A DNA stretch of 64,000 nt from Promethearchaeota archaeon. GTDB taxonomy: Archaea; Asgardarchaeota; Lokiarchaeia; Sigyniarchaeales; SOKP01. This document shows positions 30,620 through 32,460 of this stretch, piece by piece. The stretch spans positions 32,001 to 96,000 of the forward strand of contig JAHLWP010000010.1 in NCBI GenBank assembly GCA_019057865.1, given 5' to 3'. Position numbers and translations under genes: made by a program. The notes under the pieces are model-generated. The model was not told where the DNA came from. It searched no databases and saw only the letters and a list, made by a program, of their open reading frames with translations. The first letter of the stretch is position 1. Each line of letters starts with the position of its first letter.

Positions 30620-31114
30620 TTACTTCCCTCCTTCATATTCAGGTTTATTAATCCAGTTTTCATATTCATCTTCTGGAACAAAGAAGAAATCTGTCATTTT
30701 CCCTTCTCTTACTTTGTTAAAAACAGCTCTAACTCTTCTTCCTTTTTTAATCTTAGAAGGAACTAAATTTTCTGAAAAAATTCCTTGAAGTAATGCGGTT
30801 TCTGCTCCATCTAATTTTATAAAGCCTATACTATAAGGTACGGCTTTTATAAATGCAGAAGTTGTATACCATACAATTGTGCTAACTTCTATAGTTCCTG
30901 TTTGGTTCAATTCTACCCATTTAGCAGGAGCAAAACAATCAGAGCAATTGATCCTTGGAGGCATCCATGTCTTTCCACATTTAGTACATTTTGTGCCCAA
31001 TAGTTTTTTATTTTTCATTAATTCTAAAAAGAATTTGGATTGTCCTCCCATTGTGTATTTGTAGTTGATCCTTATTACATCTCTTATTTGATGCTCCTGA
31101 AATTCTTCGCTCAT
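30620..31114 (-). CDS. DUF35 (Zn-ribbon/OB-fold) protein
   Basis: KCTKCG..WMPPRINCSDC; its ATG overlaps the TGA of the spliced thiolase (ATGA, 31111-31114). Confidence 0.9.
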   Translation of the reverse strand: MSEEFQEHQIRDVIRINYKYTMGGQSKFFLELMKNKKLLGTKCTKCGKTWMPPRINCSDCFAPAKWVELNQTGTIEVSTIVWYTTSAFIKAVPYSIGFIKLDGAETALLQGIFSENLVPSKIKKGRRVRAVFNKVREGKMTDFFFVPEDEYENWINKPEYEGGK

Positions 31115-32460
31115 GGTTTTTTCAACCCCTCCTCATTTGTCATTACTATAACCGCAGCATATGCCGCTCCAGGGCCTCCTATTGAGTGAGCAATAGCTCT
31201 GCCATTTTCAATTGTTTTTATTTGATGCTTTCCAGCATCCTCTCTAAGCTGAAGTGCTGCTTCACCTGTAGACATTATCCCGGTAGCACCAACAGCATGA
31301 CCACATCCAATTAATCCACCGCAAGGGCAACATGGTAATTCACCATCTAACCATGGCCCCTCCCCTGGTTTTTCAAAGGATTTTTCAATCCATGGACCAC
31401 CTTCCCCAAAAGGAACAAACCCAAGCTCCTCATAAGAGATGACTTCTTATCCAGAGAATATCGAACTGATATTCATTGTCCTGAGAAGGCATCATGGAGC
31501 TCTGCTAAATCAATTTGTTCCTTTATTTTATTATAGTCTAAGCCTGCCATCTTATACGCGGCTTTTGCAGCAAAAATATTTGAATATAACCTTCCCATAT
31601 CTTCTCTATTTCCTATAAAACAATCGGTATTTGCTGCTGCGACACCAGTAATCCAAATCGGCTTTTCAATTTTTAATTCTCTTACTTTTTCTTCACTTGC
31701 GAGAATTAATGCTGCTGATGCTTCTGAATATAAACAACAATCAAGCATCTTGAAGGGATGACAAATTATCCTTGAGTATAGGACATCATCTAAGGAAATT
31801 TTCATAGGGGATTGTGCTTTTGGATTGAGCATAGCATTCCCATGGTTTTTTACGCTAACTTTAGCCAATTTTAACTAATTGTTAAGATTTAAAGCCATTT
31901 GTTCTTCGGTAGGATTACCGAATTCTTCATAATGGGCGTTTACCATAGAAACGTACGAGGTTGCTGCCATCATTCCCATAGGATATTTACGAAATATGTA
32001 GAACTTACACCATTTTTTCGTAAGTCATATCAGTAGAATAGGCGATGGCATTCAAAACTTCAGGTGTCGTAGTTCCTGTTTGTTCGTCATAGCAATCATT
32101 GCATTTTTCGACTCCTATACATAAACATAAGTCAGATAAGCCAGAAGCTACTTCTGCAAAAGCCATTCGGACAGTATATCCTCCTGTTGCTCCTCCTGTT
32201 GCTATACGAGTACCAGGTTTATTATTCATCCCTATATAGGAATTACAAAAAATATCTGGCATAAATTGTCTTTCAAATAGCTCATTATAGATTCCATATA
32301 CCGTAGATTGTAAATCCTTATGAGTTATTTCAGCACCGTTATTATTTGCGTCCTCAAGTGCTAATTTTGTTGCATCATATGCTAATTCAAAATATGTCTT
32401 ATCTAAATACTGGGCTTTAAAAGGAGTAATTCCTATACCTATAATCGCAACTTTCTTCAC
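31111..32460 (-). CDS. Thiolase superfamily protein, predicted four-exon gene (join 32460-32017, 31985-31891, 31860-31478, 31448-31111; 1260 nt, 419 aa)
   Basis: Removing three BHB-flanked inserts gives one ORF: ...DMTYE|YPMGMMAATSYVSMVNAHYEEFGNPTEEQMAL|VSVKNHG...ELHDAFSGQ|EVISYEELG...GGLIGCGHAVGATG...AHSIGG...KKP*. No other stops or frameshifts. Confidence 0.85.
31449..31477 (-). other. Putative BHB mRNA intron 3 (29 nt, phase 1)
   Basis: Outer helix CUUCU/AGAAG, central helix CAGG/CUGG (one A.G mismatch), bulges AC^A and AU^A, inner stem GAAUAUC/GAUAUUC; product GGA C|AA GAA. Confidence 0.78.
31861..31890 (-). other. Putative BHB mRNA intron 2 (30 nt, phase 2)
   Basis: Outer helix AAU/GUU, central helix GGCU/GGCU (two G-C, two G.U), bulges UU^A and AA^A, inner stem AAUCUUAAC/GUUAAAAUU (8 of 9 paired); product AUG GCU UU|A GUU. 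Confidence 0.85.
31986..32016 (-). other. Putative BHB mRNA intron 1 (31 nt, phase 0)
   Basis: Central helix UACG/CGUA, bulges AA^A and AA^U, inner hairpin; cutting after the second bulge nucleotide gives UAC GAA|UAU CCU. Confidence 0.8.

What the first reader, a model, noticed from the sequence alone, without database searches (positions are those of the whole stretch)
31986..32016. Intron 1: 31-nt insert with a perfect UACG/CGUA central helix
mRNA sense: GAU AUG ACU UACG AA^A AAAUG G UGUA AGUUC UACA UAUUU CGUA AA^U AUCCU. The exon-encoded UACG pairs fully with the intron's CGUA, and the inner stem has 9 pairs around one bulged G. The outer helix is weak (one U-A pair), so this is a relaxed HBh'-type motif. 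An alternative register (UUACGAAA/UUUCGUAA extended by GAUAU/AUAUC) would remove the bulges and could inhibit splicing. Retention gives a UAA four codons in.
Basis: partly seen in the sequence, partly recalled or inferred. Interest (0 to 1): 0.85.

Follow-up and report, generated by a model that had tools for sequence, protein, structure and literature searches.

The report
tRNA-type mini-intron in Asgard thiolase gene
A 31-base insert that breaks a thiolase gene of an Asgard archaeon has the shape of a tRNA-type (bulge-helix-bulge) intron and is one of three in this gene, so the enzyme can probably be made only after the messenger RNA is cut and rejoined, which published work shows for only one archaeal protein gene (cbf5).

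Summary
Window 31986-32016 (minus strand) holds a 31-nt insert in a thiolase-domain gene (32460..31111). It is absent, to the base, from more than 30 intact orthologues of the same genus.

With its exon flank it forms a 4-bp helix (UACG/CGUA) between two 3-nt bulges, plus a 9-bp inner stem with one bulged G. The outer helix is almost absent, so this is a relaxed HBh' motif.

Cutting after the second base of each bulge restores D-M-T-Y-E-Y-P-M-G. Two more inserts (30 nt, 29 nt) obey the same rule, and removing all three gives a 419-aa protein.

- **Wider sample:** among 88 orthologues, 26 carry 41 such inserts (28-35 nt) at nine or more positions. All become open frames when cut at the register chosen by structure alone.
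- **Selection:** the gene is under strong purifying selection (terminal-branch dN/dS 0.07).
- **Relatives:** two of them keep intron 1, with one compensatory pair.
- **Machinery:** the genome encodes a two-subunit EndA and RtcB.

I could not obtain RNA evidence, so splicing is inferred (about 0.8).

This scan has reported the same kind of intron before, in other genes of this genome and in other Asgard genomes.

The parts
32017..32460 (-). Exon 1 of the thiolase-domain gene (GTG start at 32460; 148 codons)
   Evidence: Open frame. 90-93% amino-acid identity to intact orthologues. NCBIfam NF004720 positions 1-124. Best solved relative is the 6esq_A archaeal acetoacetyl-CoA thiolase.
31986..32016 (-). 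Intron 1 (31 nt), the finding: A AAAUG G UGUA AGUUC UACA UAUUU CGUA AA
   Evidence: Absent from all intact orthologues. Best BHB register, with 0 of 2000 shuffles reaching its score. Homologous introns in L109 and L123.
32019..32022 (-). Central helix H, 5' strand (UACG), encoded by the exon
   Evidence: Pairs 4 of 4 with 31988-31991. Invariant in all three sequences that hold the intron.
31988..31991 (-). Central helix H, 3' strand (CGUA), inside the intron
32016..32018 (-). 5' bulge AA|A; predicted cut between 32017 and 32016
   Evidence: BHB geometry read from the sequence. The cut restores ...UAC GAA|UAU CCU....
31985..31987 (-). 3' bulge AA|U; predicted cut between 31986 and 31985
   Evidence: As for the 5' bulge. 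L123 has AU|U here.
31992..32015 (-). Inner helix h' (9 pairs, G32010 bulged) with loop AGUUC
   Evidence: 27 of 27 cells paired, with one A-U to G-C double change and one G-U to G-C change. A strain variant, 31996 A>G on the + strand, turns G32011.U31996 into G-C.
31891..31985 (-). Exon 2 (95 nt)
31861..31890 (-). Intron 2 (30 nt, in frame but holds TAG). H = GGCU/GGCU; bulges UU|A and AA|A; h' AAUCUUAAC/GUUAAAAUU
   Evidence: A divergent strain lacks exactly these 30 nt. Splicing gives M-A-L-V-S, as in several orthologues.
31478..31860 (-). Exon 3 (383 nt)
   Evidence: NCBIfam NF004720 positions 168-288.
31449..31477 (-). Intron 3 (29 nt). H = CAGG/CUGG (one A.G mismatch); outer helix CUUCU/AGAAG (5 bp); h' of 8 pairs with a bulged U; loop AGUUC
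   Evidence: Splicing gives F-S-G-Q-E-V-I.
31111..31448 (-). Exon 4 (to the TGA stop at 31113-31111)
   Evidence: Pfam Thiolase_C_1. NF004720 positions 291-386.
30620..31114 (-). Downstream gene for a DUF35/ChsH2-type zinc-ribbon and OB-fold protein, overlapping the thiolase stop by ATGA
   Evidence: Pfam PF12172 and PF01796. This is the usual partner of archaeal thiolases (6esq/6et9 complex; from my own knowledge).

Best explanation
The 31-nt insert is an archaeal bulge-helix-bulge (BHB) intron in a pre-mRNA. It is the first of three micro-introns (31, 30 and 29 nt) in a functional thiolase-domain gene of an Asgard archaeon.

Proposed mechanism:
1. In the transcript, the exon bases UACG pair with the intron bases CGUA. 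On either side of this 4-bp helix lies a 3-nt bulge.
2. The intron's own hairpin supplies the inner helix. The outer exon-exon helix is nearly missing, which makes this a relaxed HBh' motif.
3. [quoted passage not shown]
4. RtcB joins the exons and probably circularises the 31-mer.
5. The joined message reads ...D-M-T-Y-E|Y-P-M-G..., and a 419-aa enzyme is made.

An unspliced message stops at UAA four codons into the intron.

Shown here: the insert is discrete and fits the BHB geometry, the frame and conserved peptide are restored, selection is purifying, relatives show covariation, and the enzymes are encoded. Inferred: the cleavage, the ligation, and any regulatory use of the competing hairpin.
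For: - **Exact insert.** It is absent from 18 and then more than 30 intact same-genus orthologues with open frames of 412-435 aa.
- **Restored protein.** Removing the three inserts at BHB cuts gives a 419-aa protein. Its exons match one NCBIfam thiolase model collinearly.
- **Structure predicts the junction.** For 12 intron families in this gene, the register chosen by structure alone gives the conserved peptide. Shuffles reach the intron 1 score 0 of 2000 times.
- **No other lesions.** All 26 intron-bearing orthologues (41 inserts, 28-35 nt, mode 30) become uninterrupted after removal.
- **Purifying selection.** dN/dS on the G000 terminal branch is 0.07, against 0.054 in the intact sister. 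It is low in every exon, including those behind the frameshift.
- **Covariation.** Intron 1 homologues in L109 and L123 keep 42 of 42 BHB pair cells, with one A-U to G-C double change. The alternative hairpin loses 4 cells.
- **Persistence.** Intron 1 occurs in an independent study's contigs and in a strain about 12% divergent, without gaps.
- **Machinery.** A catalytic EndA (closest solved chains 3p1z_B and 3ajv_B), a second EndA paralogue that appears to lack the catalytic His, and RtcB are encoded. Asgard EndA is reported as (alpha-beta)2 with the broad-specificity loop (PMC5829648).
- **Same kind elsewhere in the genome.** A 32-nt insert in acs on contig C82, when removed, joins ...YCTAD|IGWITGHSY.... 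From my own knowledge this is the conserved acetyl-CoA synthetase motif.
Against: - No RNA data were available, so no junction read or circular intron was seen for this locus.
- In G000 the BHB conformer is predicted at -0.2 kcal/mol, against -9.5 for the competing hairpin and -11.6 for the MFE. The outer helix has only one pair.
- Covariation for intron 1 rests on three sequences (one double change; 165 of 500 shuffles do as well).
- My genome-wide scan combining BHB geometry with open-frame linkage showed no excess over its frame-shifted control. I therefore cannot say how common such introns are in this genome.
- The genome holds an intact leuS beside a fragmented one, so not every interrupted gene here has to be functional.
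Confidence: 0.8

Rival explanations
1. The gene is a pseudogene, recently disabled by insertion of small hairpin-forming mobile elements. The inserts are never removed.
For: - Each insert stops or shifts the frame.
- The genome has many thiolase paralogues that could compensate.
- Another gene, leuS, exists as an intact copy plus a fragmented copy.
- Short direct repeats flank inserts 2 and 3.
Against: - Terminal-branch dN/dS is 0.07, no higher than in intact relatives.
- There is no other lesion in any of 26 insert-bearing orthologues carrying 41 inserts.
- Intron 1 persists in a strain about 12% divergent and in lineages about 21% divergent.
- The inserts are unique in the genome rather than a repeat family.
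- Structure-chosen cuts restore the conserved peptide in all 12 families, which decay does not predict.
Confidence: 0.08
2. The inserts are translational bypass elements, like the T4 gene 60 gap or the 'byp' elements of Magnusiomyces mitochondria. Ribosomes hop over about 30 nt of hairpin.
For: The size and the hairpin are similar. In insert 3 a UGA follows the last sense codon, and insert 2 has matching GCU codons on both sides. The comparison with those systems is from my own knowledge.
Against: - Inserts 1 and 3 lack matching take-off and landing codons (GAA against UAA/AAA; CAA against UAA).
- Bypass at insert 2 would give A-K-V. Orthologues have Y or L there, and the BHB cut gives L.
- Bypass does not explain the constant geometry of a 4-bp helix with two 3-nt bulges across 41 inserts.
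Confidence: 0.03
3. The inserts are removed at the DNA level (programmed excision, as with ciliate IESs) in the cells that express the gene.
For: Insert-free versions of sites 1 and 2 occur in metagenome contigs.
Against: Those insert-free contigs differ at many other positions: TAT GAG instead of TAC GAA, and 57 other differences in X7 record 28. They are therefore other lineages, not excision products. No recombinase sits next to the gene. Contigs cannot show rare variants, so this is not excluded.
Confidence: 0.03
4. The insert is an assembly or sequencing artefact.
For: None, beyond the genome being a draft assembly of 87 contigs with 5% estimated contamination.
Against: Identical sequence occurs in contigs of four runs from at least two studies. 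Homologous inserts occur in independent JGI metagenomes.
Confidence: 0.01

Closest known systems
BHB intron in the cbf5 (pseudouridine synthase) pre-mRNA of Crenarchaeota (Watanabe 2002; Yoshinari 2006; Yokobori 2009, PMC2738675)
   Same: [quoted passage not shown] The host has a hetero-oligomeric EndA. The intron is present or absent among related species, and the frame is restored by endonuclease-type cuts.
   Different: - cbf5 has one intron in one RNA-modification gene of thermophilic Crenarchaeota.
- Here an Asgard metabolic gene has three introns of 29-31 nt.
- Its orthologues carry introns at nine or more positions, up to four per gene.
- cbf5 splicing was shown experimentally; this one was not.
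Non-canonical (HBh'/hBH) tRNA introns of Crenarchaeota and Asgard archaea (Marck and Grosjean 2003; PMC5829648; bioRxiv 10.64898/2026.10.13.758758)
   Same: The same relaxed motif, the same size range, the same (alpha-beta)2 enzyme class with broad specificity, multiple introns per gene, and repeated gains.
   Different: The substrate is an mRNA with no tRNA body to help folding or recognition. The product must also keep a reading frame.
IRE1/RtcB unconventional splicing of XBP1 (26 nt) and HAC1 mRNA in eukaryotes (from my own knowledge)
   Same: It works alike. A protein endonuclease cuts at two small RNA structures, RtcB-type ligation follows, and removing a tiny intron changes the reading frame of a cytoplasmic mRNA.
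   Different: The endonuclease (IRE1) and the recognition motif (twin stem-loops) are different. That system is a regulated stress switch. No IRE1 is expected in archaea, so this is not a member of that system.
Translational bypass elements (T4 gene 60; 'byps' of Magnusiomyces mitochondria; from my own knowledge)
   Same: Hairpin-forming inserts of about 30-50 nt that interrupt otherwise intact coding sequences.
   Different: They need matched take-off and landing codons, which are absent at inserts 1 and 3. They have no BHB geometry.

Membership tests
Archaeal BHB (EndA-spliced) intron | [quoted passage not shown] | tested here: met
   UACG/CGUA pairs 4 of 4, with bulges AAA and AAU. The same geometry holds at introns 2 and 3 and at 38 further inserts: 29 with 4 of 4 pairs, 10 with 3 of 4, and 2 with 2 of 4.
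Archaeal BHB (EndA-spliced) intron | Flanking helices h (exon-exon) and h' (intron); the strict hBHBh' form needs both | tested here: inconclusive
   h' is strong (9 pairs). h is one U-A pair (2 by my scoring). The motif is therefore the relaxed HBh' form, which only broad-specificity enzymes are known to cut (PMC5829648).
Archaeal BHB (EndA-spliced) intron | Cuts after the second base of each bulge give a functional product | tested here: met
   They restore D-M-T-Y-E-Y-P-M-G and, together with introns 2 and 3, a 419-aa open frame.
Archaeal BHB (EndA-spliced) intron | The host encodes a splicing endonuclease able to cut relaxed motifs, and an RtcB ligase | tested here: met
   Two EndA paralogues are present. 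One appears catalytic (Y/H/K motif read from the sequence, best match 3p1z_B) and one appears to lack the His. RtcB matches at 561 bits. I did not check for the broad-specificity loop itself.
Archaeal BHB (EndA-spliced) intron | The structure is kept in evolution by compensatory change | tested here: inconclusive
   Three sequences give 42 of 42 cells paired, one double change and one G-U to G-C change. Shuffles do as well 165 of 500 times. The rival hairpin is broken in 4 cells.
Archaeal BHB (EndA-spliced) intron | The intron is actually removed from the RNA (junction, or a linear or circular intron) | not testable with these tools
   No RNA run holds the locus.
Pseudogene | Relaxed selection and further lesions | tested here: not met
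   dN/dS is 0.07 on the terminal branch. No additional stops or frameshifts occur in 26 insert-bearing orthologues.
Translational bypass element | Matching take-off and landing codons around the gap | tested here: not met
   Insert 1 has GAA against UAA/AAA, and insert 3 has CAA against UAA. Only insert 2 has GCU on both sides, and there bypass would give a residue unseen in orthologues.
Self-splicing intron or small ribozyme | Match to a known RNA family | tested here: not met
   No Rfam family reaches its gathering score anywhere in the window. At 31 nt the insert is also too short for a group I or group II intron.

The most novel reading that the evidence does not exclude
Asgard archaea of this genus carry a population of ~30-nt BHB micro-introns that enter protein-coding genes at many positions and make EndA/RtcB splicing of mRNA a routine step of gene expression. 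On this reading the introns are gained, precisely lost or exchanged between lineages. Two results point that way. The exon tree rejects a single clade of intron 1 holders. Intron 2 is 29 of 30 identical between lineages whose exons are about 78% identical. In intron 1, the more stable competing hairpin could act as a switch that sets how much message is spliced.
Probability: 0.45. Interest if true: 0.9.

Novelty: new variant of a known kind. Interest (0 to 1): 0.78.

Why it matters
In the papers I could search, endonuclease-type splicing of an archaeal coding sequence is documented only for cbf5.

[quoted passage not shown] Its orthologues carry them at nine or more positions, and presence varies between lineages.

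If RNA data confirm removal, three things follow:
- Interrupted protein genes and protein-catalysed mRNA splicing are common in this lineage.
- Gene callers will mis-annotate such genes as pseudogenes or fragments.
- Intron gain, loss and spread can be studied in a prokaryote.

Intron 1 also offers a testable case of two competing RNA folds at a splice site.

Tried and rejected
- **RNA evidence.** No RNA holder was listed for this locus, so expression and splicing could not be examined. Only DNA contigs were laid.
- **Genome-wide scan.** I combined BHB geometry with a test for two open frames being linked. In two versions it gave no excess over a frame-shifted control. Ordinary gene junctions swamp it, and short exons of multi-intron genes fail its length filter. 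It recovered all three thiolase introns at the right register, but it cannot estimate prevalence.
- **Repeat family.** The three inserts have no other copies in the genome.
- **Rfam and ARAGORN on the window.** Nothing was found.
- **Synteny comparison.** Comparing the window with three relatives found frame-breaking inserts only in this gene. In-frame inserts would have been missed.
- **'Essential gene' argument from leuS.** This lead came from an earlier scan note. The genome also has an intact leuS on contig C1, so I did not use the argument.
- **Profilin as an Asgard marker.** No match, and the controls did not ring either, so the search is uninformative. Actin at 444 bits served instead.
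- **First intron presence/absence coding on the tree.** It was faulty (many '?') and was replaced by explicit lists.

Full report
**Setting**

The window is G000:C7:32001-96000, from a 4.26-Mb, 29% G+C draft archaeal genome. ARAGORN found few tRNA genes, and most of those carry introns. The genome encodes an actin that scores 444 bits against Pfam Actin. From my own knowledge, that marks an Asgard archaeon. The organism's name is not given to me.

The finding lies on the minus strand, in a gene that runs from a GTG at 32460 to a TGA at 31113-31111. Read without splicing, the gene falls into four pieces. The pieces match Thiolase_N and Thiolase_C_1. They also match consecutive parts of one NCBIfam thiolase-domain model, NF004720: positions 1-124, 168-288 and 291-386. 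The closest solved relative is the archaeal acetoacetyl-CoA thiolase 6esq_A. The next gene (31114..30620) overlaps the stop by ATGA. It encodes the DUF35/ChsH2-type zinc-ribbon and OB-fold partner.

**The observation**

The quoted RNA is exactly at 31986-32016. The elements are:
- UACG (32022-32019) pairs with CGUA (31991-31988).
- The bulges are AA|A (32018-32016) and AA|U (31987-31985).
- The inner stem has 9 pairs around bulged G32010, with loop AGUUC.
- The outer helix is a single U-A pair.

Unspliced, the frame reads E-K-M-V-stop.

**Is it a discrete insert?**

A search of 40 relatives found orthologues at 87-93% amino-acid identity with open frames of 412-435 aa. The MAFFT alignment shows that G000 has exactly 31, 30 and 29 extra bases at three places. 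All 54 species of the genus gave the same picture.

Removing 32016-31986, 31890-31861 and 31477-31449 gives 1260 nt, a 419-aa protein that aligns end to end with the orthologues.

**The same rule elsewhere in this gene family**

- G002 has a different 34-nt insert 3 nt upstream of the intron 1 site, and a 31-nt insert 16 nt downstream of that site.
- G062 and G067 share a 30-nt insert about 95 nt upstream of the intron 1 site.
- Eighty metagenome loci added many more.

In all, 26 of 88 orthologues carry 41 inserts of 28-35 nt (mode 30) at nine or more positions, with up to four in one contig (L139).

For a representative of each of 12 insert families, I scored every register near the alignment gap for BHB geometry only. 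The score counted the 4-bp H helix, the 3-nt bulges, h' and h. The best register always gave the conserved peptide, and intron shuffles reached the observed score in 0 to 68 of 2000 trials (0 for intron 1).

After removal at those registers, every one of the 26 sequences is an uninterrupted frame over its whole available length. The first intron base is A in 40 of 41 inserts.

**Is the gene alive?**

Nei-Gojobori dN/dS between G000 and its nearest intact orthologue is 0.066, and it is low in all four exons. On the G000 terminal branch it is 0.07, against 0.054 for the intact sister. Other intron-bearing branches give 0.04-0.07. G000 has two substitutions at otherwise invariant positions, no more than the intact genes have.

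Contigs from other samples show intron 1 unchanged in an independent 2015 study. They also show it, without gaps, in a strain with 66 differences over 542 nt. One difference in that strain lies in the intron: 31996 A>G on the + strand. It turns G32011.U31996 into a G-C pair.

Other lineages lack intron 1 (TAT GAG in place of TAC GAA plus the insert) or lack exactly the 30 nt of intron 2.

A pseudogene does not predict any of this.

**Structure of intron 1 in relatives**

L109 and L123 hold homologous 32-nt introns at the same site.
- **BHB structure:** all 42 pair cells are standard pairs, with one A-U to G-C double change and one G-U to G-C change.
- **Alternative hairpin:** four cells are broken and nothing covaries.

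Three sequences give little statistical weight: 165 of 500 shuffles do as well. The direction nevertheless favours the BHB fold.

Thermodynamics point the other way in G000. The BHB conformer is -0.2 kcal/mol, the competing hairpin -9.5 and the MFE -11.6. In L109 the two are about equal (-5.1 against -4.7), and in L123 the alternative is ahead (-6.0 against -2.4). Whether this competition slows or regulates splicing is open.

**Machinery**

The genome has two EndA paralogues. Reading the sequences from my own knowledge of the family:
- One has the catalytic Tyr/His/Lys pattern. It is closest to chain B of the Aeropyrum pernix heterotetramer (3p1z_B, 3ajv_B).
- The other appears to lack the His.

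RtcB is present. Published work reports (alpha-beta)2 EndA with the broad-specificity loop in Asgard archaea (PMC5829648), and heavily interrupted Asgard tRNA genes (bioRxiv 10.64898/2026.10.13.758758).

**Rivals**

- **Translational bypass.** It needs matched take-off and landing codons, which inserts 1 and 3 lack. At insert 2 it would give Lys where orthologues have Tyr or Leu, and the BHB cut gives Leu.
- **DNA-level excision.** It is not supported. The insert-free contigs are other lineages. Rare variants cannot be excluded from contigs.
- **Artefact.** Excluded by independent samples.
- **Repeat family.** Not one.
- **Known RNA family.** No Rfam match.

**History of the introns**

On an exon-only tree, the three holders of intron 1 are not a clade. 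Holding them together costs 143 log-likelihood units (AU p = 5.6e-5). The group was named after I had seen a first tree, and recombination could distort the gene tree.

Intron 2 is 29 of 30 identical between G000 and L104/L105, although their exons are about 78% identical. At the same site, L123 and L139 carry an unrelated 29-nt intron.

These patterns call for repeated precise loss, lateral spread or gene conversion. I cannot tell which.

**Elsewhere in the genome**

My structure-plus-frame scan could not measure prevalence. Its top hits include:
- A 32-nt insert in acs on contig C82. Its removal joins ...YCTAD|IGWITGHSY....
- A 30-nt insert in another thiolase paralogue at C7:~117.7 kb.

An earlier scan note offered leuS as an essential gene split by four introns. 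I found an intact second leuS, so that argument needs care.

Earlier notes of this scan report the same kind of intron in other genes of this genome and in other Asgard genomes. Some of those notes cite environmental RNA that lacks the insert. I did not check them, and I do not count them as evidence.

**Literature**

Six searches of the paper library found no report of BHB introns in Asgard protein-coding genes. Papers up to 2025 cite only cbf5 for archaeal pre-mRNA splicing.

**Verdict**

This is a new variant of a known kind: the cbf5 type of mRNA intron, but in an Asgard metabolic gene, three to a gene, about 30 nt long, and variable between lineages.

Noticed in passing
window 31861-31890 compared with L104, L105 and L109 (intron 2): Intron 2 is 29 of 30 (L104/L105) and 28 of 30 (L109) identical to G000's, although the exons of those contigs are only about 78-79% identical. 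L123 and L139 carry an unrelated 29-nt intron at the same site. This suggests lateral spread, gene conversion, or very strong constraint on the intron sequence.
   Followed up: partly
G000:C49:5023-7935 and G000:C1:28378-31242: There are two leuS genes. The one on C49 is fragmented into several frames, and a 33-nt BHB-like insert was picked up there by my scan at C49:6047. The one on C1 is an intact 967-aa frame. The interrupted copy is therefore not the only leuS.
   Followed up: partly
G000:C82:114-1525 (minus strand): An acetyl-CoA synthetase gene has a 32-nt BHB-like insert. Its removal joins ...YCTAD|IGWITGHSY... The translation around it also shows odd in-frame segments (for example VDDIEFFYSIDGY) that may be further micro-introns.
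   Followed up: partly
G000:C7:~117703-117732 (outside the window, minus strand): A second thiolase paralogue on the same contig carries a 30-nt BHB-like insert (GGUA/UACU helix). In one search it showed two TAA stops inside its match.
   Followed up: no
L139 (metagenome contig SDBT01373410.1): This orthologue carries four micro-introns (30, 30, 29 and 30 nt) in one gene. After their removal it is open over its whole length.
   Followed up: partly
whole genome G000: ARAGORN found only about 13 tRNA genes in 4.26 Mb, 9 of them with introns. Two of those calls have implausibly long introns of 876 and 1582 nt. This fits heavily interrupted tRNA genes that are hard to detect.
   Followed up: no
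window 31449-31477 and 31986-32016: Introns 1 and 3 have the same loop sequence, AGUUC, on otherwise unrelated stems.
   Followed up: no
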